This document shows positions 1,306 to 17,457 of a stretch of DNA of 64,000 nucleotides, piece after piece. The notes beneath the pieces were generated by a model. It saw only the letters and a list, made by a program, of their open reading frames with translations, was not told where the DNA came from and did not search any database. The stretch is from Pseudonocardia sp. (GTDB lineage Bacteria; Actinomycetota; Actinomycetes; Mycobacteriales; Pseudonocardiaceae). Within the stretch, counting starts at the first letter, position 1. Each line of letters opens with the position of its first letter. The stretch is from the NCBI GenBank assembly GCA_026785945.1, contig JAJAZD010000286.1, positions 13,063 to 77,062 on the forward strand, given 5' to 3'. The position numbers and the translations under genes are program-made.

Positions 1306-2463
1306 TCAGCCGGAGGTGCCGATCACCGCTGACGGGGCCGACCGGCCGAGAGCCGGCTGTCGATGCGCCACGTTGTAGGCGAGCGAGGTCAGGGCGAACT
1401 CACCGTAGGTCCACGCGCCCGAGTCGGGGTGCCATCTGGTCTCCCCCCGGGTGGGGATCCGTGCGGGGCCGACCTGGGCGTGGTCGCGGACCGGGGTCGT
1501 CCAGCGCATGCGAGTGAAAGTGCGTCCGTCCGGGGAGGAGGCCGCCCTGTCGTCCGACACGAAGTCGACCAGGTCCCCGTCGTCGTCGAACCTCAGTTCG
1601 GCCGTGACGGTGTTGACGCCCAGGGTGAAACGGCCGACCACGCAGTGCGCGTCGACGGGTTGCCAGCTGACGTCGGCCGAGACCAGCGCGCCGGGCGCCA
1701 GGACGCACAGGTCGTTGAAGAGGGTGACCGTCTCGCCGTGGGTGAACTCCGCACCGTCGGCGTCGACCATCGTGACGACCGACAGCAGCCGGACCCGCAT
1801 GGATGCGCCCTTCTCGTCGAAGGCGTGCAGCACGTCGACCGGCAACCCCTTCATCCGGGCGTCCATCTCGAAGAAGCGACAGGGGGTGTCCAGGATGTTC
1901 AGCTGATCCGCGGTGAAGGTCATCCATGCGCTGTCCGGGCCGCTGCGTATCCGGCCGGTCCACCTCGCCCGGAAGTCGTGCACCCGTGGCCGGCCGACCA
2001 CCTCCGCCCGGCGGAGGTAACGCTGGACCGGATCCGGCAGGGGCGCGAGATCGGCCTCGGTGACGTCGCCCTGAGCCGTCCGCGGCCAGGCGTGCTCGAG
2101 GTGGTGGTCGTACTCGGCGCGCAGGCTCAGCGGGCCGCGGGAGGCGAACCCGTAAAGCACCGCCACGAGCAGCAGCACGTTCGCGACGGTGCCGACCAGG
2201 GCATCGGACCAGGACGTGACGATGACGGCCTGCGAGACCAGGACGGCGAGTGCGCCCACCGCCCACCACCGGCGCGGAGCGAGGAACAGCGCGGCCGCCG
2301 CGACGAGGCACAGCAGCGTCGCGGTCAGCCACAGCACCCCGACGGGTTGCGACACGGTCTGGCGCAGCTGCGGCAGGTCCGCGAACCCGAAGGCCTTGGC
2401 GAACCCGAGGAGGTGGATCAGGCCGTGCAGGACGAACAGGGCGGCGACGGCGATCCGGATCAT
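1306..2463 (-). CDS. Membrane-anchored conserved protein (DUF6544-like)
   Basis: 385 aa; N-terminal TM helices, then LAPLPDPVQRYLRRA and a beta-rich domain; ATGA overlap with upstream acyltransferase stop. Confidence 0.65.
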   Translation of the reverse strand: MIRIAVAALFVLHGLIHLLGFAKAFGFADLPQLRQTVSQPVGVLWLTATLLCLVAAAALFLAPRRWWAVGALAVLVSQAVIVTSWSDALVGTVANVLLLVAVLYGFASRGPLSLRAEYDHHLEHAWPRTAQGDVTEADLAPLPDPVQRYLRRAEVVGRPRVHDFRARWTGRIRSGPDSAWMTFTADQLNILDTPCRFFEMDARMKGLPVDVLHAFDEKGASMRVRLLSVVTMVDADGAEFTHGETVTLFNDLCVLAPGALVSADVSWQPVDAHCVVGRFTLGVNTVTAELRFDDDGDLVDFVSDDRAASSPDGRTFTRMRWTTPVRDHAQVGPARIPTRGETRWHPDSGAWTYGEFALTSLAYNVAHRQPALGRSAPSAVIGTSG

Positions 2464-3830: not shown

Positions 3831-6523
3831 GGTTCGTGACTCATGTGGGTGTCGAGCGCGGCGCGGCCCGCCTCCAGGCGCGCGACGGGCACCCGGAACG
3901 GTGAGCAGGACACGTAGTCCAGTCCCTCGCGGTGGAAGAACCCGATGGAGTCCGGGTCGCCGCCGTGTTCGCCGCACACGCCGAGCGCGATGTCCGGACG
4001 GGCGGCGCGGCCCTCCTTCACGGCAATGCTGATCAGCCGGCCGACCCCGTCGATGTCGAGGGTCTCGAACGGTGAGGTCCCGAAGATGCCGCGCTCCAGG
4101 TAGCGGGAGAAGAACGCTCCCTCCACGTCGTCGCGGGAGAAGCCCCACGTGGTCTGGGTGAGGTCGTTGGTGCCGAAGGAGAAGAACTGTGCGGACCCGG
4201 CGATCTGACCGGCGGTCAGCGCGGCGCGGGGCAGTTCGATCATGGTGCCGATCAGGGCGTCGAGCTGGACTCCGTGCAGTTCGGATTCCTCGGTCAGCAC
4301 CGCGGAGGTCTCCTCGGCCACCGTCTGCAGCTCCTGCACGGCGCCGACCAGCGGAATCATGATCTCCGGTCGGACCTCGACGCCGTCGCGGCGCAGTGCG
4401 GCGGCGGCCTGGGCGATCGCGCGGACCTGCATGCCGAACAGTCCGGGTACGACGATGCCCAGCCGCACCCCGCGCAGACCGAGCATGGGGTTCTCCTCGT
4501 GCAGCCGCCGTACGGCGGCCAGCAGCGCCACGTCGAAGCTGTCGGGACTGCCCCGTTCCTCCGCCAGCGCGACCCGCACGGACAGCTCGGTCAGGTCGGG
4601 CAGGAACTCGTGCAGGGGCGGGTCGAGCAGCCGGATCGTGACCGGCAGCCCGGCCATCGCGGTGAAGACCTCGACGAAGTCGGCCCGCTGCAGGGGAAGG
4701 AGCGTCGCCAGTGCGGCGTCGCGCTCGGCGTCGCTGTCGGCCAGCACGAGTCGCTCGACCTGCTCGCGCCGCTCACCGAGGAACATGTGCTCGGTGCGGC
4801 ACAGCCCGATGCCCTCGGCCCCGAACCGCCGCGCCCGGTCCGCGTCCTCGCCGGTGTCCGCGTTCGCCCGTACCGCGAGCCTGCGCGTCTTGTCGGCGTG
4901 GCCCATCAGCCGGTGCACCGCGCGCACCAGCTCGCCCGCGTCGGGGGCCCCGGGGTCCAGGACGCCCTCGAAGTACTCGACGACGGGGGAGGCGACGACC
5001 GCGACCTCGCCCAGGAACACCTCGCCGGTGGTGCCGTCGATGGACAGCATGTCGCCCTCGACGACCTCGATCCCGCCGGGCCCGACGAGCCGCCGGCCGA
5101 CCACGTCGACGTCGAGGTCCTCGGCGCCGCACACGCACGTCCGGCCCATCCCGCGCGCGACCACCGCGGCGTGGCTGGTGCGCCCACCGTGACTGGTCAG
5201 CACACCCTGGGCGGCGATCATCCCCGCGAGGTCGTCCGGGTTGGTCTCGCGCCGCACGAGGATCACCCGCTCGCCCGCCGCCGCCCTGGCCACGGCCGTC
5301 GGGCTGTCGAACACCACCACGCCGGTGGCGGCGCCCGGAGAGGCGTTCATCCCGACCGCGAGGACCGTCGTCGTCGCGTCGGAGGCGAAGCGGGGGAACA
5401 TCAGCTGCGCGAGCTCGGCGCCGGTCACGCGGCGCAACGCCTCGTCGGTGTCGATCAGGCCCTCGTCGACGAGCTGGCAGGCCACCACGAACGCCGCGCC
5501 CGCGGTGCGCTTGCCGACGCGGGTCTGCAGCATCCACAGGGTGCCGCGTTCGATGGTGAACTCGATGTCGCACAGGTCCCGGTAGTGTCGCTCCAGCGTC
5601 GCCATGTTCGCCAGCAGCCCGCGGTAGGAGGCCGGGTCGAGCCGCTCCAGCTCGACGAGGGACAGGGTGTTGCGGATGCCGGCGACGACGTCCTCACCCT
5701 GGGCGTTGGCCAGGTAGTCGCCGTAGACGCCGTGGCTGCCCGTGGCCGGGTCGCGCGTGAACGCCACACCGCTGCCGGAGTCGGGCCCCAGGTTGCCGAA
5801 CACCATCGCCATCACCGTCACCGCGGTGCCCAGGTCGGCGGGGATGCGCTCCCGGCGGCGGTAGGTGACCGCGCGTGGGGCGTTCCAGGACCCGAACACG
5901 GCGCGGACGGTCAGATCCAGCTGCTCGCGGGGGTCCTGGGGGAACTCCCGGCCCGCCCGCGCGACCACCACCGCCTTGAACGCCGCCACGACCGACCGCA
6001 GGTCCGCCGCGTCCAGGCCGAGGTCGTCGGACGTGCCCTTCGCGCGTTTCGCGGCGTCGAACACCGCGTCGAAATGCCCGCCGTCGATCCCCAGCACGGT
6101 CTTGCCGAACATCTGCACCAGGCGCCGGTAGGAGTCCCAGGCGAACCGGTCGTCGTCGGCGATCCGGGCGAGGCCCTCCACCGAGGAGTCGTTGAGCCCG
6201 ACGTTGAGAACGGTCTCCATCATGCCGGGCATCGAGAACTTCGACCCCGACCGCACCGACACCAGCAGCGGGTCGTCGGGGTCGCCGAGGCGCCTGCCCA
6301 TCGCCGCCTGCAGCGCCGCGAGGTGCTCGTCGACCTGACCGGCCTGCGCCGGCGGCTCCACCCCGGACTCCAGATAGGCCCGGCAGGCCTCGGTCGTGAT
6401 CGTGAACCCGGGCGGCACGGGGAGCCCCATGTTGGTCATCTCGGCGAGGTTCGCGCCCTTCCCGCCCAGCAGGACCTTGAGGTCCTTGTTGCCCTCCGCG
6501 AACGCGTACACGTACTTCGCCAT
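3827..6523 (-). CDS. ppdK: Pyruvate, phosphate dikinase
   Basis: 898 aa; LGGKGANLAEM, GGRTSHAAVVARG phospho-His, GIGLCRTEHMF, FFSFGTNDLTQ, GVCGEHGG. Confidence 0.97.
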   Translation of the reverse strand: MAKYVYAFAEGNKDLKVLLGGKGANLAEMTNMGLPVPPGFTITTEACRAYLESGVEPPAQAGQVDEHLAALQAAMGRRLGDPDDPLLVSVRSGSKFSMPGMMETVLNVGLNDSSVEGLARIADDDRFAWDSYRRLVQMFGKTVLGIDGGHFDAVFDAAKRAKGTSDDLGLDAADLRSVVAAFKAVVVARAGREFPQDPREQLDLTVRAVFGSWNAPRAVTYRRRERIPADLGTAVTVMAMVFGNLGPDSGSGVAFTRDPATGSHGVYGDYLANAQGEDVVAGIRNTLSLVELERLDPASYRGLLANMATLERHYRDLCDIEFTIERGTLWMLQTRVGKRTAGAAFVVACQLVDEGLIDTDEALRRVTGAELAQLMFPRFASDATTTVLAVGMNASPGAATGVVVFDSPTAVARAAAGERVILVRRETNPDDLAGMIAAQGVLTSHGGRTSHAAVVARGMGRTCVCGAEDLDVDVVGRRLVGPGGIEVVEGDMLSIDGTTGEVFLGEVAVVASPVVEYFEGVLDPGAPDAGELVRAVHRLMGHADKTRRLAVRANADTGEDADRARRFGAEGIGLCRTEHMFLGERREQVERLVLADSDAERDAALATLLPLQRADFVEVFTAMAGLPVTIRLLDPPLHEFLPDLTELSVRVALAEERGSPDSFDVALLAAVRRLHEENPMLGLRGVRLGIVVPGLFGMQVRAIAQAAAALRRDGVEVRPEIMIPLVGAVQELQTVAEETSAVLTEESELHGVQLDALIGTMIELPRAALTAGQIAGSAQFFSFGTNDLTQTTWGFSRDDVEGAFFSRYLERGIFGTSPFETLDIDGVGRLISIAVKEGRAARPDIALGVCGEHGGDPDSIGFFHREGLDYVSCSPFRVPVARLEAGRAALDTHMSHEP

Positions 6524-6605: not shown

Positions 6606-6641
6606 GGGCCCTACGGCCCCGTCGGGGCGGCGGAAGGACCC
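6606..6641. promoter_or_regulatory. Pair of DosR/DevR-like boxes upstream of ppdK
   Basis: GGGCCCTACGGCCC (6606-6619) and revcomp GGGTCCTTCCGCCG (6628-6641), 22 bp apart. Confidence 0.55.
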
Positions 6642-7101
6642 CGTTCCCGCGTCGGGCGTCGCCGGGACAGCAGGGCGCCGCCGACGGCCGACACCGCGAT
6701 CGTCACGAGGGACGCGCCGATGATCGCCGCGGCCTGCCCGGCGTCGAGCACGCCCTGGGCCAGCCCGATGGACACCACGGCCGACGGCACGCCGAGCGCC
6801 GCCGTCGCCAGCAGCCCGACCGCCGGCGGGCGCCGGAGCACCACCGCGACGAGCACGTGGACGGTGACGGCCGCAGCGACCAGCCCGCCCAGCAGGAGCA
6901 GCGCCCGGCCGGAGCCGAGCAGTGCGGCGAGCTCGAGCCGGGCGCCGAGCGTCACGAAGAACAGCGGCACGAAGAACCCCTCCGCGACCCCGACGAGCTG
7001 CTGGGCGAGCCGGTGCGGCCGGGCCGTGCAGGACCGGTATCGCGATCGCGGCCGACGGCCAGCCCGGCGGCCACGACGAGGGCGAGCAGCCCGAAGGTCA
7101 C
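6611..7101 (-). pseudogene. Cation:proton antiporter remnant, internally deleted
   Basis: N-terminal VTFGLLALVVAAG in one frame and C-terminal EGFFVPLFFVTLGARL in another; about 490 bp of a ~1.2 kb gene. Confidence 0.7.
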
Positions 7102-7163
7102 CCCCGCATGGTGCCGGGCGCGGGCCCGGTTCGGTGGCCGGACCCGCGACGACAAAGGGGTAC

Positions 7164-7177
7164 GGGACTTTCGCCCC
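7164..7177. promoter_or_regulatory. DosR/DevR-like box upstream of USP operon
   Basis: GGGACTTTCGCCCC. Confidence 0.6.
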
Positions 7178-7334
7178 TGTCGGTTCGCCGCCCGTCCGGT
7201 TCATGCTGGCCGGGCCGAAGGCGAGACGGCGAGGAACCGCAGTCGCCGCTGACCACGTTCGTCCCGGCACCCGGGGCCCCTGCCGAGCTGGGGAGCGACG
7301 GTCGCGGTCCCCGGGATCGACGAGACGGAGTGAC

Positions 7335-7844
7335 ATGGACGGGATCAGCAGGGTGGTGGTGGGCGTCGACGGGGCGCCCGGGTCGCGAGCGGCTCTGGAG
7401 CACGCCCTGCACGACGCGGCGCGCCGGCAGGCCCGGCTGCGGGTGGTCGCGGTGGTGCCGTTGCCCGCCTACTGGGTGGCGGCCTACGGAGTGGGCGTGC
7501 CACCGCCCTCCGCCGAGGTCGTCGCGGAGGTGCAGGCCGCGGTGCTGCGGATGGTGGAAGAGGTGGTGGCCACACACGCGGATCTTCTCGGCCGGGTGCC
7601 GGTGGCGGTCGTGGCCACGGTCGGCAACCCGGCCGAGGCGCTGCTGGAGGCATCGCGGGACGCCGACCTCCTCGTACTGGGTCACCGGGGCCGGGGCGCG
7701 TTCACCAGTGCCGTGCTCGGATCGGTGGGCCTGCACTGCGTCCTGAACGCCGCGTGTTCGGTGACGATCGTGCGGCCGGCGGCGGAGTCCGCGGTCCCGG
7801 AATCGGTGCCCGTGGGCGCGACGGCCGTACCGGTGCCGGCGTGA
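7335..7844 (+). CDS. Universal stress protein (single USP domain)
   Basis: RVVVGVDG...LLVLGHRGRG..LGSVG..VTIVR; GGAG RBS before ATG 7335. Confidence 0.92.
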   Translation: MDGISRVVVGVDGAPGSRAALEHALHDAARRQARLRVVAVVPLPAYWVAAYGVGVPPPSAEVVAEVQAAVLRMVEEVVATHADLLGRVPVAVVATVGNPAEALLEASRDADLLVLGHRGRGAFTSAVLGSVGLHCVLNAACSVTIVRPAAESAVPESVPVGATAVPVPA

Positions 7845-8554
7845 GCGGGCCGACCGTGCACCGCACGGTGGTCGGCGACATCATGACCATCACGGTGCTG
7901 TCCGTCGGACCCGCGACGGCGGTCACCGAGATCGCGGTGGTGCTCTACGCCGGGGCGGTGCGCGCGGTCCCGGTCCTCGACGAGGAGGGCAGGCTGCTCG
8001 GCGTGGTCTCCGAGGCCGACGTGCTCGCGACGCTGCCGGATACGGCCCCCGGCGAGGACCACCCCTGGTGGCGCCATCGCCCGCGGCACATCCACCGCAC
8101 GCCGCCGCCACCGAAGGTCGGGGCCGGGACAGCGCGGGGGCTCATGACGGAATCCGTGATCACGGTAGGCGCGACGGCGACGGTGACGAGCGCGGCGCGG
8201 ACGATGCGCGAGCACGGTCTGAGCTGGCTGCCGGTCGTGGACGCCGACCGGCGGGTGGTCGGCGTGCTCAGCCGCTCCGACCTGCTCGCGGTGTTCCTGC
8301 GGGGCGACGACGCGATCCGCACCGAGGTCGTCGACGAGGTGCTGGGCCGGATGGTGCTCGTCGAACCGGCGCGCGTCGACGTCGACGTGGTCGACGGGGT
8401 CGTCACGATGACCGGGGAGGTCGACACCCGGGTCGACGCCGTGCTCGCGGTGCGCTTCGTCGAGCGTCTCGAGGGTGTGGTCGAGGTGGTCGACCATCTG
8501 AGCTTCCGGGTGGACGACCGTGACGCCACCCTCGACATCGCCCCGCTGTACTGA
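7841..8554 (+). CDS. CBS-pair + BON domain protein
   Basis: Two CBS motifs (VPVLDEEGRLLGVVSEADVL; LPVVDADRRVVGVLSRSDLL) and C-terminal BON (VVDGVVTMTGEV); GTGA overlap with USP. Confidence 0.88.
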   Translation: MSGPTVHRTVVGDIMTITVLSVGPATAVTEIAVVLYAGAVRAVPVLDEEGRLLGVVSEADVLATLPDTAPGEDHPWWRHRPRHIHRTPPPPKVGAGTARGLMTESVITVGATATVTSAARTMREHGLSWLPVVDADRRVVGVLSRSDLLAVFLRGDDAIRTEVVDEVLGRMVLVEPARVDVDVVDGVVTMTGEVDTRVDAVLAVRFVERLEGVVEVVDHLSFRVDDRDATLDIAPLY

Positions 8555-8583
8555 CACCCGACTCCGGCGGGCCTCCGGGCCGA

Positions 8584-9305
8584 TCATGACTCCGGGAGGG
8601 TCCGGGCGACGAGGTCGACCAGGTCGACGGTCCGCTGCGCGTAGCCCCACTCGTTGTCGTACCAGCCGAAGATCTTGGCCGTGCTCCCGACGACCCGGGT
8701 CAGCCCGGCGTCGAAGAGGCACGAGGCCGACTCGCCGATCACGTCGTGGGACACGACGGGATCGGTCGTGTACCGCAGGATGCTCTTGAGGGGTCCGTCG
8801 GCGGCGGTCTGGAACGCCCGGTTGATCTCCTCGGCGGTGGCGGGTCCGGTGAGCCGGACGGTCAGGTCGACCAGCGACCCGTCGACCACCGGGACGCGCA
8901 CCGCGATGCCGTCGAGCCGCCCGGCGAGCCGGGGGAGCACCTGACCGATGGCCCGCGCGGCGCCCGTGGTGGTGGGGATGATGTTGACCGCCGCGGAGCG
9001 GGCGCGGCGCATGTCCTTGTGCGGCCCGTCGAGCAGGTTCTGGTCGGAGGTGTAGCTGTGGATCGTGGTGAGCAGGCCCTCCTCGATCCCGAACGCCTGG
9101 TCCAGGACCAGCGCCATCGGCGTCGCGCAGTTCGTCGTGCACGAGGCGTTGGAGACGATGTGGTGCGCCGCGGCGTCGTAGACCTCCTGGTTGATCCCCA
9201 TCACGACGGTGGCGTCCACGTCCGTGCCCGGTGAGGTCAGGACCACCTTCCGCGCACCCGCGGTGAGGTGGGCGGTGGCGCGCTCGCGGGTGCGGAACCG
9301 GCCCG
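8584..9305 (-). pseudogene. gap: Type I glyceraldehyde-3-phosphate dehydrogenase lacking the first ~90 residues
   Basis: GRFRTRERATAHLTAGARKVVL, catalytic SNASCTTNC, WYDNEWGY; in-frame TAG just upstream (~9323) and no NAD-binding GFGRIG motif. Confidence 0.85.
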
Positions 9306-9308
9306 AGG

Positions 9309-9322
9309 GGGGCTTTCGCCCC
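9309..9322. promoter_or_regulatory. DosR/DevR-like box at the gap breakpoint
   Basis: GGGGCTTTCGCCCC, 13/14 identical to the box at 7164. Confidence 0.55.
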
Positions 9323-9480
9323 TACCGGGCGAGTGCCGACACGACGATCCTGATCTCCGGTGCCCGGGTCAGGCCGGGATGGTTCGGCCGCCCCGGTGCG
9401 GGGCGAGGGACGAGGGACATGGACGGGATGGCCACGGTGACGGGCGTCGGTGGGACCGCCGTCGCGGGCCGGCCGGCCCC

Positions 9481-9930
9481 GTGAGCTCACCGGGAGCGGG
9501 ACGCGCACCGCAGCGGCCGGTCGTCGCCCACCGGTTCTTCCTGGCAGTGCTGCGCTCTCCGCTCGGTCGCCCGTTCGGCGGCATGTGCGAGCTGCGGTTC
9601 GTGGGGCGCGTCTCGGGCCGCTCGATCACCCTGCCCGTCCAGTGTGCTCGTGAGGCGACGCGGCTGGTGATCTACGTCGGTCGCTCGGCAGACAAGCAGT
9701 GGTGGCGCAACTTCCTCGGCGGCCGCGGTGTGCAGGTGCGCGTCGGCGGGGTCGACCACCGCGGACACGGTCGTGTCATCGACGGCTCCCATCCCGATCG
9801 CCCGGAGGTCGAGCAGGCCTACCGCCGCCGCTTCCGGAACGTCCAGGTGGCACCGACCGATCCGATGGTGGTCATCGATCTCGCGGCGGCAGACGCCCAC
9901 CCCTCTGCCCACCGGGACCCGTCGCACTGA
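9481..9930 (+). CDS. Deazaflavin-dependent nitroreductase/quinone reductase-like split-barrel protein
   Basis: VLRSPL..GRVSGRSITLPV...KQWWRNF motif; GTG 9481. Confidence 0.65.
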   Translation: MSSPGAGRAPQRPVVAHRFFLAVLRSPLGRPFGGMCELRFVGRVSGRSITLPVQCAREATRLVIYVGRSADKQWWRNFLGGRGVQVRVGGVDHRGHGRVIDGSHPDRPEVEQAYRRRFRNVQVAPTDPMVVIDLAAADAHPSAHRDPSH

Positions 9931-9961
9931 GCCCGCCGAACCACGATCCCACGAGAATCTC

Positions 9962-10670
9962 ATGACCGGACCCAGTAACGACACCGAGAAGGCGCTGTAC
10001 GTCGTGCTGGGCGCCACCGGCGGTATCGGTCGTGCCGTCGTCGCCGAGGCCGCGGCCCGCGGACACCGGGTGTGCCCGGTCAGCCGCTCGGCGGCGGCCG
10101 GCGACCTGCCCGACGGCGTGCAGCGACTCAGCGCGGACGCGGGAACTCCCGAGGGCGCGGCCGCCGCCGTGGCCGGCTCTGCGGTCGTCGTGCACGCGGC
10201 ACAACCGGACTACACCCGCCGGCGCGACGAGTTCCCTCCACTCACCCGCCGCGTCGCCGACGCCACCGCCGCGGCCGGGGCCGGTGTTCGTCGACAACCT
10301 CTACATGTACGGCCCGCAGCCGGACGGCCGGGCCATGACCGAGGACACCCCCACCGGGGCCGACGAGACGAAGGGCAGGGTGCGGGCGCAGATGGCGGCC
10401 GACCTGCTGGACCGTTGCGGGCGCGGTGAGCTGCGGGTCGCGATCGGTCGGGCATCGGACCACCACGGGCCGCACGGCACCGACACCGTGATGGGTGACA
10501 CCTTCTTCAAGGCCGCAACATGGTCGCCGCTGAGATCGACCGACCCGTGACGCTCCGTGCCGCCGGCCCACGAACCCTGCGCCTTCTCGGCCTGTTCGTG
10601 CCGATGATTCGGGAGCTGGCCGGCGCCGCCTACCAATGGCAGCTCCCCTTCGTCGCGGACGGCGCCTCCG
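9962..10670 (+). pseudogene. NAD-dependent epimerase/dehydratase remnant (frameshift + deletion)
   Basis: VVLGATGGIG in frame 1, VFVDNLYMYGP in frame 2, C-terminal LLGLFVPMIREL..YQW..PFV in frame 3. Confidence 0.8.
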
Positions 10671-10717
10671 AGGTCGGTGGTTGCCCGTGGAGTCGAACCC
10701 GCGCCCGTCGCGGCCGA

Positions 10718-11497
10718 TCAGCCGGTGGCGACCGCGGGGTCGAGCAGCCCGTAGTTCCCGTCGTGGCGGTGGTAGATCACGTTGGCCCGTCCGCCGTCGC
10801 GGTCGCGGTAGAACAGGAACGGAAGTCCGGTCATCCGCAACCGGTCCACAGCCTCCTGCGTGTCCAGGACGGGGGCCGGGTGCGGGCTCACGGTGAGATC
10901 GACGGCGTGCGGTCCGGCCGCGGTGAAGCCGCCACCCACCCGCGCGAGCTGCAGGCCCGTCGGACCGTCCCGGTAGACCACGGCGTCCTGCCCACTGCCC
11001 GCTTCGACGAAGAGGTGGAAGTCGAGATCGAGGTCGTCCATCTCGACGACGGCGTCGTCGACGGTGCACTCCTGTGGACTGATCGTGGGGTGCCGGACGA
11101 TCTCTCGCTCCACCGGCTCGCCTGCATCGGCGGCTCGTTCGTGTGCGTCGCGAAGGTTCGCCCGGTCGTGGCCCTGCCCCCGGTCGTGAGACATCCGCTC
11201 CAGCCGGTGGTCCAGGCGCTCGACGAGCATGTCCACCGCCTCGCGAGGCTTCGTGGCCGCCACGTGTACCTGTACCGGCACGCCGTCGAGATCCACGGTG
11301 GCCGCCGCGGTGATCGGCCGTTCCCGCGCGGGATCCCCGTACCGCTCGATCCAGACGTGCACCCGCAGTACCGCGCGTCCGGTGTGCCGCAGCACCCCGG
11401 CGATCTTCAGTTTCGCGTAGTCCGCGAGGTCCGCGGCGATCTCGCCGCGCAGCTCGACCACGGCCTCGCGCATGACCCGTTCCTGTGCTTGATCCAC
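10718..11497 (-). CDS. HPF/RaiA-like protein with tandem sigma-54 modulation/S30EA C-terminal domains
   Basis: N-terminal HPF-like region, two MDDLDLDFHLF / MTGLPFLFYRD repeats, terminal IYHRHDGNYGL. Confidence 0.82.
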   Translation of the reverse strand: MDQAQERVMREAVVELRGEIAADLADYAKLKIAGVLRHTGRAVLRVHVWIERYGDPARERPITAAATVDLDGVPVQVHVAATKPREAVDMLVERLDHRLERMSHDRGQGHDRANLRDAHERAADAGEPVEREIVRHPTISPQECTVDDAVVEMDDLDLDFHLFVEAGSGQDAVVYRDGPTGLQLARVGGGFTAAGPHAVDLTVSPHPAPVLDTQEAVDRLRMTGLPFLFYRDRDGGRANVIYHRHDGNYGLLDPAVATG

Positions 11498-11526
11498 ACC
11501 TGGATGCTCGCAACACCGGGCTCGCC

Positions 11527-11540
11527 GGGACAGAGGTCCT
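11527..11540. promoter_or_regulatory. DosR/DevR-like box upstream of HPF-like gene
   Basis: GGGACAGAGGTCCT, near-perfect GGGAC-N4-GTCCC. Confidence 0.6.
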
Positions 11541-11662
11541 ACGACCCGGGCAAGGCAGCGGAAGACCCCGCATCGGCGGGCCTGCGCCGCTCACGTGCCG
11601 GCCCGGGTGGCATGCGTCGAGCTCTCCACCGCGCCACCCCACGCATTCGTCCCTGGCGTCGC

Positions 11663-11676
11663 GGGACCTTCAGCAC
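11663..11676. promoter_or_regulatory. DosR/DevR-like box upstream of adhP
   Basis: GGGACCTTCAGCAC, with half-site TTCGTCCC ending at 11653 (23 bp earlier). Confidence 0.55.
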
Positions 11677-11793
11677 TGCTGAGCCCGGGGGATGCGGTGT
11701 TCAGTCGGAGCTGCGCTCGTGAACGCGACGCCCTCCGCGACCTGCACCGCAGGCTCTGCGGTACTGCTCGATCCCACCGAACGGAGCACCACG

Positions 11794-12807
11794 ATGAGAG
11801 CCGCCGTCGTCACCGATTTCCGCAAGCCGTTGGAGCTGCAGGAGCTGCCGGTACCGGAGCCGGGCCCGGGTCAGGTGCTGGTCCGCATCGAGACCACCGG
11901 CCTGTGCCACACCGACATCCATGCCGCGCACGGTGACTGGCCGGTCACGCCGAAGCCCCCGTTCATCCCCGGGCACGAGGGGATCGGCCGCATCGAGGCT
12001 CTCGGGACCGGGGTGAGTACCCGCGCGGTCGGCGATCGGGTGGCGATCGCGTGGCTCGCCGGTGCCTGCGGTCGGTGCCGCCACTGCATCGGCGGCTGGG
12101 AGACGCTGTGTGAGAGCCAGCAGAACTCCGGATACTCGGTCGACGGCACCTTCGCCGAGTACACGGTCGTCGCCGCCGCGTTCGCGACACCGGTGCCCGA
12201 GACCATCCCCTCCCGCGACGCCGCCCCGCTCACCTGCGCAGGCGTCACCACCTACAAGGCGATCAAGGTCGCCCGGCTGGAACCGGCCGAGACGGTGGCG
12301 GTCTTCGGTGTCGGCGGGCTGGGACACCTCGCCCTGCAGTACGCCCGCATCGCCGGGGGTTTCGTGATCGGCGTCGACGTCGAGGCCGACAAGCTCGCGA
12401 TGGCGACCGAACTCGGCGCCGACCACGTGGTCGACGCCGCGACGACCGATCCCGTGGCCGCGATCCACGCCCACGGCGGCGCCGACGTGGCGCTCGCGCT
12501 CGCCGCCTCACCCGAGTCCTTCGACCAGGCGTTCCGGTCGCTACGTCGCGGTGGCCGGCTGGTGTGCGTCGCGATGCCTGCGGACGACGGCGTCGTGACC
12601 CTGCCGATCTTCGACACGGTGGTCAACGGGAAATCGGTGATCGGCTCGATCGTCGGCACCCGCAACGACCTCGCCGACGTCTTCGCCCTTCACGCCGCCG
12701 GGCGCACCCGGGTGATCACCGTCGCCCGCCCGCTCGAGCAGGTCAACGAGGCCATCGACGACGTGCTGGCCGGTCGCGTCCAGGCGCGCGTGGTCTTCGA
12801 CCTGTAG
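11794..12807 (+). CDS. adhP: Zn-dependent alcohol dehydrogenase (AdhP type)
   Basis: GLCHTDIH, GHEG, structural CGRCRHC..C, GVGGLG. Confidence 0.93.
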   Translation: MRAAVVTDFRKPLELQELPVPEPGPGQVLVRIETTGLCHTDIHAAHGDWPVTPKPPFIPGHEGIGRIEALGTGVSTRAVGDRVAIAWLAGACGRCRHCIGGWETLCESQQNSGYSVDGTFAEYTVVAAAFATPVPETIPSRDAAPLTCAGVTTYKAIKVARLEPAETVAVFGVGGLGHLALQYARIAGGFVIGVDVEADKLAMATELGADHVVDAATTDPVAAIHAHGGADVALALAASPESFDQAFRSLRRGGRLVCVAMPADDGVVTLPIFDTVVNGKSVIGSIVGTRNDLADVFALHAAGRTRVITVARPLEQVNEAIDDVLAGRVQARVVFDL

Positions 12808-12878
12808 CCGGCCCATCCGACGTCGCTCACCCCGCGGATGCCGGGTGCGTCGCGCCGGCGGCTCCGTCGCGTGCCGGC

Positions 12879-13211
12879 CTACGTGCGGGTGGCCACGGTG
12901 AGCAGCACCGCGGCGTCCTCGAGCGCTTCGAGCGCGTGCCGGGTGCCGGGCACCACGAGGAGGTCGCCGGGGGAGCCCTCCCAACCCTCGTCCCCGGCGA
13001 CGAGACGCACCCGCCCGTGCAGCACGTGCACCGTGGCCTCCCCGGGGCTCTCGTGCTCGTCGAGCTTCCGTCCGGCGGCCAGCGCGATGACCGTCTGGCG
13101 CAGGACGCGTTCGTGGCCGCCGAACACGGTCTGCGCGCTCCGCCCACTGGACGCCGTCCTCGCGATCTTCAGCTGTTCCCTGGCCAGCGCGGTCAGCGAC
13201 GACTTCTTCAC
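12879..13211 (-). CDS. Small cupin-domain protein
   Basis: LRQTVIALAAG..LDEHESPGEATVHVLHG..HALEALED; GTG at 13211. Confidence 0.85.
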   Translation of the reverse strand: MKKSSLTALAREQLKIARTASSGRSAQTVFGGHERVLRQTVIALAAGRKLDEHESPGEATVHVLHGRVRLVAGDEGWEGSPGDLLVVPGTRHALEALEDAAVLLTVATRT

Positions 13212-13326
13212 GGGTGTGCCTTTCCGGCGAACTGCGGGAGCGGGGCGGCGTCGGACAGGAGGAGGTCGGACGCGAGCGACCGGGCCCGCGGCGATCTCGG
13301 GACCCGGTCGACCGTTCTGGTCGAGG

Positions 13327-13932
13327 TCAGGCAAGGAACCGGAACCGTTCGACGATCGGGAGGCGCTCCCACGTCCTGCCCAGTCCGAGGGTCCGGCCGG
13401 CACCGACGAGGACGAGGATCCCCAGGAGCATGGCGTAGATCAGGTGGTCGTCCATGAACGGGTTGGTGGCGGGCGGCAGGACCGCGGTCCACATGAGGAA
13501 CAGTAGCACCGCACCGGAGACCGCCGCGATGCGCATCGCGATGCCGAGCATGAGGGCGACCCCGATGCCGAGCAGGCCGATCATGAACAGCCAGTCGGCC
13601 CACGCCGCACCGGCGATCGAACCGTAGGCGTCGGCGAAGGGACCCTGCGTGGCGTTGCCCAGGAAGCCCTTGGTCGGCGACCCGCCGTTGAGCCAGGCGG
13701 CATCCCCGAAGACGGCGACGGCGCCGGTCTCCTTGTCGCGGCCGGTGGCGAAGCCGAGAGCGAAGGTCTTGTCGATGAACGCCCAGAGGAACACCCACCC
13801 GATGCTCAGCCTCGTGACGGCGGCGAGGTAGCGCAGCGCCGTCCGCGATGTCGGCCCGGTCCCCGGGTGGATGGACGGCGTGGCCTCCGTGCTCGGGACT
13901 GAGGTTCTCCTGCTCGGGACTGCGGTGCTCAT
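13327..13932 (-). CDS. DoxX/DoxD-family membrane protein
   Basis: RLSIGWVFLWAFIDK, GSPTKGFL, NPFMDDH. Confidence 0.85.
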   Translation of the reverse strand: MSTAVPSRRTSVPSTEATPSIHPGTGPTSRTALRYLAAVTRLSIGWVFLWAFIDKTFALGFATGRDKETGAVAVFGDAAWLNGGSPTKGFLGNATQGPFADAYGSIAGAAWADWLFMIGLLGIGVALMLGIAMRIAAVSGAVLLFLMWTAVLPPATNPFMDDHLIYAMLLGILVLVGAGRTLGLGRTWERLPIVERFRFLA

Positions 13933-14037
13933 GACGGCCTCTCTGAGTGGATGGCGGCCTGGTGGCTGATCAGATCCCGTCGCTTCTCGCGGTGGGGGTC
14001 ATGGACCCATCCTGATCACCGGAGCGTTGCGGTGGCA

Positions 14038-14074
14038 GAGCTGAACGTCCCGAGGCGGCGGGGTCGAAGTGCCG
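14038..14074. promoter_or_regulatory. Pair of DosR/DevR-like boxes upstream of doxX
   Basis: revcomp GGGACGTTCAGCTC (14038-14051) and CGGCACTTCGACCC (14061-14074), 23 bp apart. Confidence 0.5.
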
Positions 14075-14107
14075 GACCTGGCCCGGACCGGCGGGTGTCC
14101 TCCCGGT

Positions 14108-14926
14108 TCAGAGGACGGTCAGGCCGTGGGAGCGGAACCGGTCCTCCACGCGCTCCACCAGCTCCTGCGACGGCGGGGCGTGGGCCCCCAGCTGGTAAGG
14201 GAGCCCGAGCTCGGCCCACTTGCCCGCACCCAGGTGGTGGAACGGCAGGACCTCCACCCGATCGACGCCGTCGAGGGTGGCGACGAACGCGGCCACCGCC
14301 TCGACGTTCTCGGGCGCGTCGGTGAGTCCCGGCACCAGCACGAAACGCACCCACATCCGGTTGCCCCGGTCCGACAGCCGGCGGGCGAAGCGCAGCGTCG
14401 GTGCGAGGTCCGCGCTGGTGACCAGGCGGTAGGTGTCGGGGTCGCCGGACTTGATGTCGAGCAGGAACAGGTCGACCAGGTCGAGGAACTCGTCGGTGGC
14501 CCGGTCGCCGAGGAACCCCGAGGTGTCCACGGCGGTGTGCAGCCCGAGGTCGTGGCGGCAGCGGCGCAGCAACGCCTCCAGGAACCGGATCTGCAGCATC
14601 GGTTCGCCGCCGCTGACGGTGATCCCGCCGTGCGCGGTGGTGACGAACGCCGCGTACTTCGCGATCTCGTCCACCATCCGTCCCGTCGTGACCCGGCGGC
14701 CGTCGCCCATCGTCCACGTGTCGGGGTTCTCGCAGTACTGGCAGCGCAGCGGGCACCCGGACAGGAACAGGGTGAACCGCACGCCGGGCCCGTTGACGGC
14801 GCCGGTGATCTCGTAGGAGTGGTAGTAGCCGATCTCCGGGTCCCCCTCCTGCGCCAGCTCCGCCTCGAGCTCGGCCCGCGACCCGCCGTGACGCTCGCGC
14901 ACCGGCGTGATCGGGAGCCGGCGCAT
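14108..14926 (-). CDS. pflA: Pyruvate formate-lyase activating enzyme (radical SAM)
   Basis: CPLRCQYC (CxxxCxxC), [15 protein letters not shown]; TGATG overlap with pflB. Confidence 0.93.
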
Positions 14927-17229
14927 CAGAGCGAGCCGTGGAACGTGCGGTGGATGACGTCGAGCTGTTGCTCCCGGGTGAGCCGCACGAAGTTCACCGC
15001 GTACCCGGACACCCGGATGGTCAGCTGCGGGTAGCGCTCGGGGTGCTCCATGGCGTCGAGCAGGGTGTCCCGGTCGAGCACGTTGACGTTGACGTGGAAA
15101 CCGTGCGCGCCGAAGAAGCCGTCGAGGATGCCGGTGAGGTTCTCGACCTGCTCCGCCGCGGTCTTCCCCAGTGCGGTCGGCACGAGGTTGCTGGTCAGCG
15201 AGATGCCGTCGCGCGCCTGGTCGTAGGGCAGCTTGGCGACCGAGAGCGCCGAGGCCACCCAACCGTGCCGGTCGCGCCCGTTCATCGGGTTCGCACCGGG
15301 GGAGAAGGGCTCGCCCGAGCGGCGGCCGTCGGGGGTGTTCCCGGTGGCCTTGCCGTAGACCACGTTCGAGGTGATCGTCAGCACCGACTGGGTGTGGGTC
15401 GCCCCGCGGTAGGCGCGATGGCGGCGGATCTTCTCCATGAACCGTTCCACCAGCCCGACCGCGATGTCGTCGACGCGGTCGTCGTTGTTGCCGTACGCCG
15501 GGTAGCTACCCTCGATCCGATAGTCGACGACCAGACCGGTGTCGTCGCGGACGACCGTGACGCGGGCGTCCCGGATCGCGGACAGGCTGTCGGCGGTGAC
15601 CGCCAGACCAGCGATGCCCATCGCCATCGTGCGGTGCACCGGGTGGTCGTGCAGCGCCATCTCGATGCGCTCGTAGGCGTACTTGTCGTGCATGTAGTGG
15701 ATGACGTTGAGCGCGTCGACGTAGACACGGGCGAGCCAGTCCATCTCGACGTCGAGCTTGGCCAGCACGTCGTCGTAGTCGAGCAGGTCTCCGGTCACGG
15801 GCGCGGTGGGCACCGCCACCTGCAGGCCGCTCTTCTCGTCGCGCCCGCCGTTGATGGCGTAGAGCAGCGTCTTCGCCAGGTTGACCCGGGCGCCGAAGAA
15901 CTGCATCTGCCTGCCGAGGGTCATCGCCGAGACGCAGCACGCGATGGCCGTGTCGTCGCCGGTCACGGGGCGCATCAGCTCGTCGGACTCGTATTGGATG
16001 CTGCTCGTGTCGATCGAGGTCCGGGCGGCGAAGTCCTTGAAGCCCTGGGGCAGCGCCGGCGACCACATCACGGTGAGGTTCGGCTCCGGGGCCGGGCCCA
16101 GGTCGTGCAAGGTCTGCAGGAAGCGGAACGAGCTGCGCGTCACCAGCGTCCGTCCGTCGGCGCCCATGCCGCCGATGCACTCGGTCACCCACGTCGGGTC
16201 GCCGGAGAACAGGGCGTCGTACTCCGGGGTGCGCAGGAAGCGGACGATCCGCAGCTTGATCACGAAGTCGTCGATCAGCTCCTGGGCGCGCGACTCGTCG
16301 ATGCGGCCGTCGTCGAGGTCACGCTGCAGATAGATGTCGAGGAACGTCGACGTGCGCCCCAGCGACATCGCGGCGCCGTTCTGCTCCTTCACCGCGGCGA
16401 GGTAGCCGAAGTAGAGCCATTGGATCGCCTCCTGCGCCGTGCCGGCCGGGCCCGAGATGTCGAACCCGTAGGAGGCGGCCATCTCCCGCAGTTCGCCCAA
16501 GGCCCGGATCTGCTCGGCCAGCTCCTCCCGGTCGCGGATGACGTCCTCGCTCGAGGGCAGCGCGTCGAGCGAGGACTTGACGAGCTGCTTGTCCGCGACG
16601 AGCCGGTCGGTCCCGTAGAGGGCGACGCGGCGGTAGTCGCCGATGATGCGGCCACGCCCGTAGGCGTCGGGGAGGCCGGTGATGATGTGGGAGCGCCGGG
16701 CCGCGAGAATCTCCTCGGTGTAGGCGTCGAACACCCCGTCGTTGTGGGTCTTGCGGTACTTCGTGAAGATCTCCGCGACCCGCGGGTCGACCTCGTACCC
16801 GTAGGTCCGAAGGCTTGTCTCGACGACGCGCCAGCCGCCGTTGGGCATGATCGCGCGGCGGAGCGGGGCGTCGGTCTGCAGGCCGACGATCAGCTCGGCG
16901 TCCCGGTCGATGTAGCCGGGGGCGTGCCCGGTGATCGACGCCGGGGTGTGCGTGTCGATGTCGTGGACGCCCCGCGCGCGTTCCTGCGGGAACAGCGCCG
17001 TCATGCGCGCCCACAGGGCCGTCGTCCGGTCGGTGGGTCCGGCCAGGAACGACGCGTCGCCCTCGTAGGGCGTGTAGTTGTCCTGCAGGAACTGTCGGGG
17101 GTCGATCGAGCCGCGCCAGCCCTGCCCCCGGAAACCGCGCCACGGATCTCCCGCGCGGGTGTCTCCCGACGGGTGGCGGTCGGTGGCGCTCCTCGGCCCG
17201 GGGACAGGGCTCCGCACGGTCTGGGTCAT
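14926..17229 (-). CDS. pflB: Pyruvate formate-lyase (formate C-acetyltransferase)
   Basis: 767 aa; catalytic IACCVS, glycyl radical [15 protein letters not shown]. Confidence 0.97.
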
Positions 17230-17265
17230 GGTCCGATCCTCGCCCGCCGGCCCGGGCCGGCGACA

Positions 17266-17371
17266 GAGCAGAAGGTCCCGGGTGGGCCGGCCGATGTGCC
17301 ACCGGTGAACCGGGCGGAGGCCGCGACGCCGGTAGGCCCCGCTGACCCGTTCCCGACGGGACCTTCGCCGG
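17266..17371. promoter_or_regulatory. Divergent pflB/phosphoketolase promoter with DosR/DevR-like boxes
   Basis: revcomp GGGACCTTCTGCTC (17266-17279) facing pflB; GGGACCTTCGCCGG (17358-17371) followed by -10-like TATCGT facing xfp. Confidence 0.6.
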
Positions 17372-17457
17372 TATCGTATGACCCGGCCCGTGGGAGAGGC
17401 TTCCTCCGGGAGCGCCCCGTGTCGCCTTCACCGCCCGGCCCACCTGAGGAGTCACCC

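What the first reader, a model, noticed from the sequence alone, without database searches (positions are those of the whole stretch)
6606..17371. One DosR/DevR-like box in front of nearly every unit of the island
Seen: 14-mers matching GGGACCTTCGGCCC at mostly 10-12/14 lie upstream of ppdK (6606, 6628), USP (7164), gap/reductase (9309), HPF-like (11527), adhP (11663), doxX (14038, 14061), pflB (17266) and xfp (17358). Paired sites are 22-23 bp apart. Known: the M. tuberculosis DevR box has a GGGAC-N4-GTCCC core and uses cooperative primary/secondary sites about two turns apart. Inference: PFL, XFP and PPDK are wired into a DosR-type regulon whose regulator is encoded elsewhere.
Basis: partly seen in the sequence, partly recalled or inferred. 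Interest (0 to 1): 0.7.

Follow-up and report, generated by a model that had tools for sequence, protein, structure and literature searches.

The report
DevR/DosR boxes on a hypoxia island
A short DNA box in front of most operons of this fermentation and stress gene island is very likely the binding site of the low-oxygen regulator DevR/DosR, encoded elsewhere in the genome; this is a clear but ordinary new example of a regulon known from Mycobacterium tuberculosis and Streptomyces, here extended to pyruvate formate-lyase and phosphoketolase.

Summary
All ten 14-mers are at the stated coordinates with 10-12 of 14 matches. The literal criterion is not enriched in the window (21 hits, 24.8 expected).

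A refined, oriented 17-21 nt motif, cGGGACCTTCrsCnCTG, is strongly non-random. With a matrix trained without this contig, the boxes at 7164, 11663, 14038 and 17266 rank among the best 15 positions of the 4.46-Mb genome.
- 17358 is moderate.
- 6606 fully matches the published Dev-box consensus, and ppdK orthologues carry similar boxes.
- 9309 is a two-substitution decayed copy of a canonical box seen in sister contigs.
- 6628, 11527 and 14061 are at chance level, and 22-23 bp pairing has no statistical support.

The regulator is on contig C102. It is a single DevR orthologue (247 bits to Mtb DevR) with the DNA-reading residues conserved, next to a haem-GAF DevS/DosT-like kinase, a tandem USP and an Acg nitroreductase, with a consensus box in its own promoter region.

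Box centres lie 43.5-44.5 nt from leaderless start codons, and an ANNNT -10 signal sits at fixed distance, as at M. tuberculosis hspX.

pflB loci of 18 of 26 other actinomycetes carry such a box. xfp lies 2-3 kb from devR in three other families.

The parts
6606..6619 (.). Palindromic Dev box GGGCCCTACGGCCC, centred 89.5 nt upstream of the ppdK start; overlaps the stop codon of the Na+/H+ exchanger remnant
   Evidence: Full match to GGGHCNWWNGNCCC, which has only 28 matches in the genome. The matrix scores it only 7.8 because its centre is TAC/GTA rather than TTC. Three of the four closest ppdK orthologues carry a GGGCCGTTCGGCCC-type box in upstream DNA that otherwise cannot be aligned. S. coelicolor ppdK is an EMSA-verified OsdR target.
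6628..6641 (-). Candidate secondary site GGGTCCTTCCGCCG, 22 bp upstream of the 6606 box
   Evidence: Score 0.4, reached once per 100 bp, so indistinguishable from chance. It cannot be excluded, because secondary Dev boxes in M. tuberculosis are degenerate.
7160..7180 (+). Strong Dev box GTACGGGACTTTCGCCCCTGT upstream of the USP / CBS-BON operon
   Evidence: Score 23.0 with a matrix trained without this contig; only 3 genome positions score as high. Full match to the published consensus. A CATGCT -10-like hexamer at 7202-7207 puts the inferred transcription start at about 7214, 43.5 nt from the box centre (read). Identical in sister contigs.
9305..9325 (+). Decayed Dev box GAGGGGGGCTTTCGCCCCTAC at the 5' truncation point of the GAPDH fragment; followed by a remnant of a USP N-terminus (ATG at 9419) and an F420-dependent-reductase-like gene
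   Evidence: Score 8.1. It belongs to the class GGGNCNTTCGNCCC, with 15 copies in the genome, 11 of them intergenic. Sister metagenome contigs carry the canonical GAGGGGGACTTTCGCCCCTGC at this place, score 18.5.
11527..11540 (.). GGGACAGAGGTCCT in front of the HPF gene; not a supported site
   Evidence: Score 5.2, about one per 680 bp. The class GGGACNNNNGTCC is not enriched in intergenic DNA: 14 of 69 against 11.3 expected.
11659..11679 (+). Strong Dev box TCGCGGGACCTTCAGCACTGC upstream of adhP
   Evidence: Score 23.7, the best position in the genome with the held-out matrix. Conserved in sister contigs with an A/G change at a degenerate position.
14035..14055 (-). Strong Dev box CCTCGGGACGTTCAGCTCTGC upstream of the doxX-like / cupin operon
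   Evidence: Score 19.4; 15 genome positions score as high. A cAGGAT -10-like hexamer and an ATG follow at 42.5-43.5 nt. Identical in sister contigs.
14061..14074 (-). Candidate secondary site CGGCACTTCGACCC, 23 bp upstream of the 14038 box
   Evidence: Score 5.0, about one per 620 bp, so chance level.
17263..17283 (-). Strong Dev box ACCCGGGACCTTCTGCTCTGT upstream of pflB-pflA
   Evidence: Score 22.0; 7 genome positions score as high. The box centre is exactly 43.5 nt from the A of the pflB ATG at 17229, with gAGGAT at -12 to -7, which implies a leaderless promoter. 18 of 26 pflB loci from other actinomycetes have a consensus box upstream.
17354..17374 (+). Moderate Dev box CGACGGGACCTTCGCCGGTAT upstream of xfp
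   Evidence: Score 11.1, about one per 14 kb. The sister-contig version scores 15.9. gAGGCT at 17396-17401 puts the inferred start at 17408, 43.5 nt from the box centre, and a GAGGAG ribosome-binding sequence precedes the TTG start at 17458.
1306..6523 (-). Operon ppdK (3827-6523), WS/DGAT tgs (2460-3830), DUF6544 (1306-2463)
   Evidence: Pfam hits and NCBIfam acyl_WS_DGAT. Stop and start codons overlap as GTGA and ATGA.
7335..8554 (+). USP (7335-7844) and CBS-CBS-BON protein (7841-8554), translationally coupled
   Evidence: Pfam Usp, CBS and BON; GTGA overlap.
10718..11497 (-). Ribosome hibernation factor (S30AE/HPF), long form; no significant box of its own
   Evidence: Pfam Ribosom_S30AE_C and Ribosomal_S30AE; site evaluation.
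11794..12807 (+). Zn alcohol dehydrogenase, AdhP-like
   Evidence: NCBIfam AdhP 321.7 bits against a cut-off of 344; the alignment starts at residue 26 of the form beginning at GTG 11719, which places the likely start at 11794.
12879..13932 (-). DoxX-like membrane protein (13327-13932) and cupin (12879 to about 13290)
   Evidence: Homologues are named DoxX family membrane protein or thiosulfate dehydrogenase [quinone] large subunit. Cupin_2 hit.
14108..17229 (-). pflB (14926-17229) and pflA activase (14108-14926)
   Evidence: Pfam PFL-like, Gly_radical, Radical_SAM and Fer4_12.
17458..19893 (+). Xfp phosphoketolase
   Evidence: Pfam XFP_N, XFP and XFP_C.

Best explanation
The boxes are operators of the genome's single DevR/DosR orthologue, a NarL-family response regulator at contig C102:10090-10746. 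It is paired with a haem-GAF DevS/DosT-type kinase.

Proposed mechanism (inferred):
- Under hypoxia, or NO or CO, the kinase phosphorylates DevR.
- A DevR dimer binds one box centred about 43.5 nt upstream of the transcription start, next to a weak -35 region.
- It recruits RNA polymerase, as in the cryo-EM structure of DosR on the M. tuberculosis hspX promoter.

This would switch on seven transcription units of the island:
- ppdK-tgs-DUF6544
- USP / CBS-BON
- adhP
- doxX-cupin
- pflBA
- xfp
- a decayed promoter at 9309

About 15-20 further promoters elsewhere would respond too, among them cydABDC, more USPs, a PspC-flavodoxin operon, corA and an Acg nitroreductase.

The box is asymmetric and oriented. 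The strong half, GGGACC, lies away from the promoter. The weak half plus CTG abuts the -35 region. Several targets, including pflB, appear to be leaderless.

What is shown: the motif, its enrichment, its fixed geometry, the regulator and sensor genes, and conservation in other genomes. What is inferred: binding, activation, the signal and the start sites.
For: Motif reality:
- GGGACYTTC: 21 of 44 copies lie in the 16% called intergenic.
- Matrix hits of at least 16: 29 of 35 intergenic. Hits of at least 20: 12 of 12.
- Dinucleotide shuffles of intergenic DNA give 2.07 hits of at least 16, against 26 observed.
- Held-out contig: 7 against 0.035 expected, p about 1e-14.
- The independent published consensus GGGHCNWWNGNCCC has 28 genome matches, 17 of them intergenic (4.6 expected). 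One is GGGTCGATCGGCCC in the USP-devR intergenic region.

Regulator:
- 247 bits to M. tuberculosis DevR (3C3W), against 147 for the next structure.
- The segment FLAEKTVKNYVS, which carries K179, K182 and N183, is identical. These residues read GGGACT/TGTCCC in the DosR activation complex.
- The closest paralogues are at most 42% identical.
- The kinase's first GAF domain matches DosT/DevS at E 1e-53.
- Neighbours are a tandem USP, a P-type ATPase and an Acg-family oxidoreductase (317 bits, cut-off 199).

Geometry:
- 5 of the 11 best sites have the start codon of a long reading frame 43.5-44.5 nt from the box centre.
- A is enriched at -12/-11 and T at -8/-7 relative to that point.
- The hspX box is centred at -43.5 and the tgs1 primary box at -42.5.
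- 12 of the 14 best sites point toward a co-directional gene.

Conservation:
- Sister contigs at about 98% identity keep all seven boxes.
- ppdK orthologues carry boxes.
- pflB has a box upstream in 18 of 26 actinomycete loci, at 11 times the density of the rest of those loci.
- pflB in same-genus genomes G004 and G017 carries CGGGCCGTAAG(C/T)CCCTGC.
- xfp has a box in G019, G024 and G021. xfp lies 2-3 kb from devR in G019, G021 and G022.

Literature: OsdR binds the USP/ppdK intergenic region in S. coelicolor.
Against: - There are no binding, expression or start-site data.
- Intergenic versus coding classification rests on my own crude codon-bias gene caller.
- The matrix was seeded on GGGACYTTC, so conservation of the central TTC is partly due to how the sites were chosen.
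- M. tuberculosis promoters always have at least two tandem boxes. No regular second box is detectable here.
- The four closest xfp orthologues have no box.
- The devR locus itself lacks a high-scoring copy of the oriented motif; it has only a palindromic consensus match.
- The adhP -10 element is poor.
Confidence: 0.8

Rival explanations
1. The motif is a real operator but is read by another regulator, either one of about 16 paralogous NarL/LuxR-type response regulators or an unrelated redox regulator. The DevR orthologue would control only its own locus.
For: The genome holds many NarL-family paralogues. The devR locus lacks the oriented high-scoring form of the motif. The oriented CTG tail is not part of the published Dev box.
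Against: The motif core equals the Dev/OsdR box. Only the C102 protein keeps the DevR recognition helix; paralogues are at most 42% identical. A consensus box lies in the USP-devR intergenic region. The target set is the classic DosR/OsdR set. xfp with its box sits next to devR in other genomes.
Confidence: 0.1
2. The motif is a promoter element for an alternative (ECF-type) sigma factor rather than an activator site.
For: The motif is oriented and lies at a fixed distance from the inferred start. No sigma-70 consensus promoter is found in the region.
Against: GGGAC lies at about -49 to -45, too far upstream for a -35 element. The motif is 17 contiguous bases with two-fold pseudo-symmetry. The downstream element is ANNNT, typical of housekeeping-sigma -10 regions. 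The same geometry is solved structurally for DosR with SigA.
Confidence: 0.03
3. The sites are chance matches in a 72% G+C genome.
For: Three of the ten sites are at chance level.
Against: Enrichment on the held-out contig has p about 1e-14. Shuffle controls, fixed promoter geometry and conservation across genera all argue against chance.
Confidence: 0.02

Closest known systems
Mycobacterium tuberculosis DevR(DosR)-DevS/DosT dormancy regulon and its Dev boxes (Park 2003 consensus; Chauhan 2011, PMC3177182; DosR activation complex, PMC13486717)
   Same: The regulator is orthologous, with an identical DNA-reading helix. The kinase has haem-GAF domains. The box core is GGGAC-N4-GnCCC. The promoter-proximal box lies at about -43. 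Shared targets are USPs, a CBS protein (hrp1-like), tgs, an Acg nitroreductase, an HPF-like gene and a ctpF-like ATPase. A box lies at the USP-devR locus.
   Different: No regular tandem secondary box is detectable. The box is asymmetric, with a degenerate promoter-side half and a conserved CTG tail. Many targets appear leaderless. The regulon includes pflBA, xfp, ppdK, adhP and cydABDC.
Streptomyces coelicolor OsdR/OsdK regulon (Urem 2016, PMC5069765)
   Same: It is a non-mycobacterial actinomycete with a USP-rich island dense in boxes. The consensus is AGGGCCGATCGGCCCT, and one listed site is CGGGACCTTCGGCCCT. PPDK/USP, alcohol dehydrogenase and nitroreductase are targets, and the USP/ppdK region is EMSA-verified.
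   Different: S. coelicolor boxes are more symmetric, GGGCC/GGCCC. That paper reports no pflB or xfp target. Here the regulator gene lies on a different contig from the island.
Other DosR-box islands noted in this scan in uncultured actinobacteria and Acidimicrobiia
   Same: The same 14-bp box, including GGGACYTTCGGNCC variants and oriented copies, sits at a fixed distance upstream of stress and fermentation genes. One note links DosR to cydA.
   Different: These are different genomes, and the notes are unchecked AI notes used only as leads.

Membership tests
DevR/DosR regulon (Dev box operators) | Box matches the Dev-box consensus GGGHCNWWNGNCCC, with the essential G and C in each half-site | tested here: met
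   7164 and 6606 match fully. 9309, 11663, 14038, 17266 and 17358 deviate at 1-3 positions: position 7 of the distal half in 9309, and the promoter-side half in the others. The consensus itself is enriched in intergenic DNA, 17 of 28 matches, p 1.6e-7.
DevR/DosR regulon (Dev box operators) | Genome encodes a DevR orthologue with the DNA-contacting residues K179, K182 and N183 and the phospho-acceptor Asp | tested here: met
   C102:10090-10746 scores 247 bits to 3C3W and is the only orthologue. FLAEKTVKNYVS and LDVRLPDG are conserved.
DevR/DosR regulon (Dev box operators) | Cognate GAF-GAF-HisKA_3 haem sensor kinase of the DevS/DosT type | tested here: met
   C102:10771-12435, adjacent to devR and on the opposite strand. 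The first GAF domain matches DosT/DevS at E 1e-53 and the ATPase domain matches at E 1e-19. Haem binding itself was not tested.
DevR/DosR regulon (Dev box operators) | Box at the regulator's own locus (autoregulation through the USP/devR promoter region) | tested here: met
   GGGTCGATCGGCCC at C102:9995, in the 187-bp tandem-USP/devR intergenic region. This is sequence evidence only.
DevR/DosR regulon (Dev box operators) | Targets overlap the known DosR/OsdR regulons | tested here: met
   USP, CBS-BON, WS/DGAT, PPDK, alcohol dehydrogenase, Acg oxidoreductase and a tandem USP, compared with the OsdR target table.
DevR/DosR regulon (Dev box operators) | Promoter-proximal box centred at about -42.5 to -43.5, next to the -35 region | tested here: inconclusive
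   Start codons of apparently leaderless genes lie at 43.5-44.5 nt, and ANNNT lies at fixed distance. This agrees, but no transcription start has been mapped.
DevR/DosR regulon (Dev box operators) | At least two tandem boxes about 21 bp apart in helical phase (hallmark in M. tuberculosis) | tested here: not met
   No secondary hit at 21-23 bp around the 29 best sites. 6628 and 14061 are at chance level. Degenerate secondary sites cannot be excluded.
DevR/DosR regulon (Dev box operators) | DevR~P binds the boxes, and the genes are induced by hypoxia, NO or CO in a devR-dependent way | not testable with these tools

The most novel reading that the evidence does not exclude
Pyruvate formate-lyase (pflBA), and more patchily phosphoketolase (xfp), are conserved but so far unreported members of the DevR/OsdR regulon across mycelial and other high-G+C actinomycetes. 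The evidence is a box upstream of pflB in 18 of 26 loci from Streptomyces, Kitasatospora, Streptacidiphilus, Planomonospora, Dactylosporangium and others, and xfp lying next to devR in three families.

In this lineage pflB is rare in the genus, present in 3 of 19 genomes. A glycyl-radical fermentation module acquired here has been plugged into the regulon by a single oriented box at -43.5 of a leaderless promoter. This would imply real fermentative energy conservation in a nominally aerobic actinomycete under hypoxia.
Probability: 0.5. Interest if true: 0.45.

Novelty: new member of a known kind. Interest (0 to 1): 0.35.

Why it matters
The finding gives a sequence-level regulon map of about 20-25 promoters for a DevR/DosR system outside mycobacteria and Streptomyces.

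It links the regulator to a coherent low-oxygen carbon and energy module:
- PPDK, phosphoketolase, pyruvate formate-lyase and alcohol dehydrogenase
- cytochrome bd
- ribosome hibernation
- triacylglycerol storage

It offers testable promoter rules: one oriented box at -43.5, and often a leaderless transcript.

The recurrent box upstream of pflB across many actinomycete genera suggests that 'aerobic' actinomycetes use DosR to run a fermentative survival metabolism. That is useful for soil ecology and for understanding dormancy physiology. It does not change the known principle.

Tried and rejected
- **Literal 14-mer.** With up to 3 mismatches it is not enriched in the window. I replaced it with a refined motif.
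- **Strict M. tuberculosis core.** GGGAC-N4-GTCC(C) has 69 and 9 genome matches and no intergenic enrichment. It is therefore not the local form of the box, and 11527 is not supported.
- **Secondary boxes.** No signal at 21-23 bp or at any fixed offset within 60 nt either side of the 29 best sites. A recurring GACCCCGCG-like string upstream has no fixed spacing (read).
- **RNA element.** No Rfam family in bases 1-22000.
- **Promoters and terminators.** No sigma-70 consensus promoter and no intrinsic terminator.
- **Repeat copies.** The flanks of the boxes share no similarity beyond the 17-21 nt motif.
- **xfp footprinting in the genus.** The four closest orthologues have no box.
- **My own error.** I first took the 'doxX' label to be wrong; homologue names show it is reasonable.
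- **Regulator model.** NCBIfam has no DevR-specific model. The best hit, MadR, is below its cut-off, so I used the comparison with solved structures instead.

Full report
**Setting.** The window is C286:13063-77062 of a 4.46-Mb draft genome with 380 contigs and 72% G+C.

I built the gene map from Pfam and NCBIfam scans and a GC3/codon-bias gene caller that I wrote myself. On the minus strand:
- ppdK 3827-6523, followed by WS/DGAT 2460-3830 and DUF6544 1306-2463. Their stop and start codons overlap as GTGA and ATGA.
- A Na+/H+ exchanger remnant from 6611 to about 7100.
- A 5'-truncated GAPDH fragment 8584-9321.
- HPF 10718-11497.
- A cupin and a DoxX-like protein, 12879-13932.
- pflA 14108-14926 and pflB 14926-17229.

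On the plus strand:
- USP 7335-7844, coupled to a CBS-CBS-BON gene 7841-8554.
- A weak F420-reductase-like gene 9547-9930.
- A frameshifted NmrA-like gene.
- adhP 11794-12807.
- xfp 17458-19893.

The left half of the box is much more informative. GGGACYTTC occurs only 44 times in the genome. Of these, 21 lie in the 16% I call intergenic, and 4 lie in the 11-kb island.

The intergenic copies share an extended, oriented motif, cGGGACCTTCrsCnCTG. With a 21-nt matrix:
- Hits scoring at least 16 are intergenic in 29 of 35 cases, against 5.8 expected.
- Hits scoring at least 20 are intergenic in 12 of 12 cases.
- Dinucleotide-preserving shuffles of all intergenic DNA give 2.07 hits of at least 16, against 26 observed. 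For hits of at least 20 they give 0.07 against 12.

A matrix rebuilt only from sites outside contig C286 gives these scores in the window:

| Site | Score | Reading |
|---|---|---|
| 7164 | 23.0 | strong |
| 11663 | 23.7 | strong |
| 14038 | 19.4 | strong |
| 17266 | 22.0 | strong |
| 17358 | 11.1 | moderate |
| 6606 | 7.8 | marginal |
| 9309 | 8.1 | marginal |
| 11527 | 5.2 | chance level |
| 14061 | 5.0 | chance level |
| 6628 | 0.4 | chance level |

The four strong sites are all within the best 15 positions of the genome. On this held-out contig, 7 sites of at least 16 are seen where 0.035 are expected.

Caveats apply to these numbers. The coding versus intergenic calls are my own approximation. 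The matrix was seeded on the word GGGACYTTC, so conservation of the central TTC is partly due to how the sites were chosen.

**The two marginal sites.**
- 6606 (GGGCCCTACGGCCC) fully matches the published consensus GGGHCNWWNGNCCC, which has only 28 matches genome-wide. Three of the four closest ppdK orthologues in the genus carry GGGCCGTTCGGCCC-type boxes, even though the upstream DNA cannot otherwise be aligned. In S. coelicolor the USP/ppdK intergenic region is an EMSA-verified OsdR target.
- 9309 (GGGGCTTTCGCCCC) lies at the break point of the GAPDH fragment. It is followed by a remnant of a USP N-terminus. In three metagenome contigs about 98% identical to this island, the orthologous position reads GAGGGGGACTTTCGCCCCTGC, a canonical box scoring 18.5. 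The copy here is therefore a decayed box.

Those sister contigs keep all seven boxes. Their xfp box scores better (15.9) and their pflB box worse (16.5) than here.

**Who reads the box?** A search for HisKA_3 kinases found one with two GAF domains on contig C102.
- Its first GAF domain matches DosT/DevS at E 1e-53, and its ATPase domain matches at 1e-19.
- The adjacent response regulator, transcribed from the opposite strand, scores 247 bits against M. tuberculosis DevR (3C3W). The next structure scores 147 bits.
- The regulator has no close paralogue; the best is 42% identical.
- It keeps the segment FLAEKTVKNYVS. According to the DosR activation-complex structure, K179, K182 and N183 in that segment read GGGACT/TGTCCC.
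- Neighbours are a tandem USP, an NmrA-like gene, a P-type ATPase, an Acg-family FMN oxidoreductase (317 bits, cut-off 199) and a lactate-permease-like gene.
- A consensus box, GGGTCGATCGGCCC, lies in the USP-devR intergenic region.
- The orthologue is present in 13 of 18 same-genus genomes and in most sampled families of the order.

**Geometry.** In 12 of the 14 best sites the motif points toward a co-directional downstream gene. In 5 of the 11 best sites, pflB among them, the start codon of a long reading frame lies exactly 43.5-44.5 nt from the box centre.

When the 18 best sites are aligned on the box, A is enriched at -12/-11 and T at -8/-7 relative to that point (9, 8, 10 and 6 of 18, against 14% background). 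That is an ANNNT -10 element at a fixed distance.

The same arithmetic places -10-like hexamers correctly for USP (CATGCT) and xfp (gAGGCT), read. The adhP -10 element is poor.

This matches the hspX promoter used for the DosR activation complex, where the box is centred at -43.5, the -35 is suboptimal, and DosR contacts sigma-A region 4 and alpha. It also matches the tgs1 primary box at -42.5.

I infer that the weak, CTG-bearing half faces the -35 region, and that several targets are leaderless. Neither point is shown.

**Paired sites.** M. tuberculosis promoters always carry at least two tandem boxes 21 bp apart, the second often very degenerate. Around the 29 best sites here, I find no secondary hit at any fixed offset. 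Only a footprint can decide whether they are occupied.

**Wider regulon and conservation.** Other high-scoring sites precede:
- cydABDC and a divergent tandem USP
- a PspC-flavodoxin-hydrolase operon
- corA, and a divergent unit that starts with an 86-codon leaderless reading frame, with GH14 beta-amylase and DUF2252 genes further downstream
- YtfJ-like genes
- an SQR-like oxidoreductase with DsrE-like genes
- a CBS-pair protein
- a fatty-acid desaturase

The first 33 kb of C286 therefore forms a box-dense hypoxia island, like SCO0167-SCO0219 in S. coelicolor.

For pflB:
- It is rare in the genus, present in 3 of 19 genomes including this one, and one of those copies is a pseudogene.
- Same-genus genomes G004 and G017 have CGGGCCGTAAG(C/T)CCCTGC upstream of pflB.
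- In 26 pflB loci from Streptomyces, Kitasatospora, Streptacidiphilus, Planomonospora, Dactylosporangium and actinomycete metagenome bins, 18 have a consensus box (1 mismatch or fewer) within 350 nt upstream. That is 11 times the density in the rest of those loci.

For xfp:
- The four closest orthologues lack a box, but G019, G024 and G021 have one.
- xfp lies 2-3 kb from devR in G019, G021 and G022.

I found no paper in the searched library that links DosR/OsdR to pyruvate formate-lyase or phosphoketolase. That is absence in one library, not proof of novelty.

**Rivals.**
- Another NarL-type regulator could read the box. This is unlikely because only the C102 protein has the DevR helix, and because of the target set and the box at the devR locus.
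- An alternative-sigma -35 element is unlikely because GGGAC sits at about -47 and the downstream element is of the housekeeping -10 type.
- Chance is excluded for the strong sites.
- No Rfam family and no sigma-70 consensus promoter is present.

**Verdict.** The box is real at four sites, probable at three and unsupported at three. The interpretation as a DosR-type regulon with its regulator elsewhere in the genome is supported. Earlier notes of this scan describe similar islands in other genomes, so this is a new member of a known kind. The points of interest are the PFL/XFP/PPDK fermentation wiring, the single oriented box and the leaderless promoters.

Noticed in passing
window 8584-9321 (-), 6611-7100 (-), about 9995-10550 (+), 9419-9484 (+): The island carries gene debris. 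There is a GAPDH gene lacking about 90 N-terminal codons, a Na+/H+ exchanger with an internal deletion of about 425 nt relative to sister contigs, a frameshifted NmrA-like gene, and a 21-codon remnant of a USP N-terminus. About 98%-identical metagenome contigs lack most of the GAPDH fragment and have a 269-aa exchanger.
   Followed up: partly
C286:1-13062 (upstream of the window): The hypoxia island continues off the window. It holds cydABDC with a box at C286:4807, a tandem USP, further consensus boxes at C286:7646 and C286:8716, and a strong leaderless box at C286:9246 in front of a PspC-flavodoxin-hydrolase operon.
   Followed up: partly
whole genome (none in the window): A tandem intergenic repeat of about 22 nt, consensus ...GACCCCGACTCGCGsGCAyGGA..., has 147 copies of its 12-nt core. 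It is among the words most enriched in intergenic DNA. Its function is unknown.
   Followed up: no
contig ends genome-wide: There are 228 poly-G or poly-C runs of at least 12 nt, and 208 of them lie within 200 nt of a contig end. These are most likely sequencing or assembly artefacts, and they inflate intergenic word statistics.
   Followed up: partly
window 60239-60259 (+): An isolated matrix hit, TCATCGGACTTTCAGCGCTGG (score 16.8), lies in the low-G+C (53-61%) mobile-element region, more than 2 kb from the next co-directional gene. It is probably fortuitous.
   Followed up: no
window 13969-14002 (-): The inferred transcript from the 14038 box begins with a 10-codon reading frame (ATGACCCCCACCGCGAGAAGCGACGGGATCTGA) ahead of the doxX-like gene. 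It could be a leaderless upstream reading frame or a coincidence.
   Followed up: no
G017:C44:71251-73501 (L084-L088): pflB in a same-genus genome is broken into at least five frame-shifted pieces, yet it still carries the upstream box CGGGCCGTAAGTCCCTGC.
   Followed up: no
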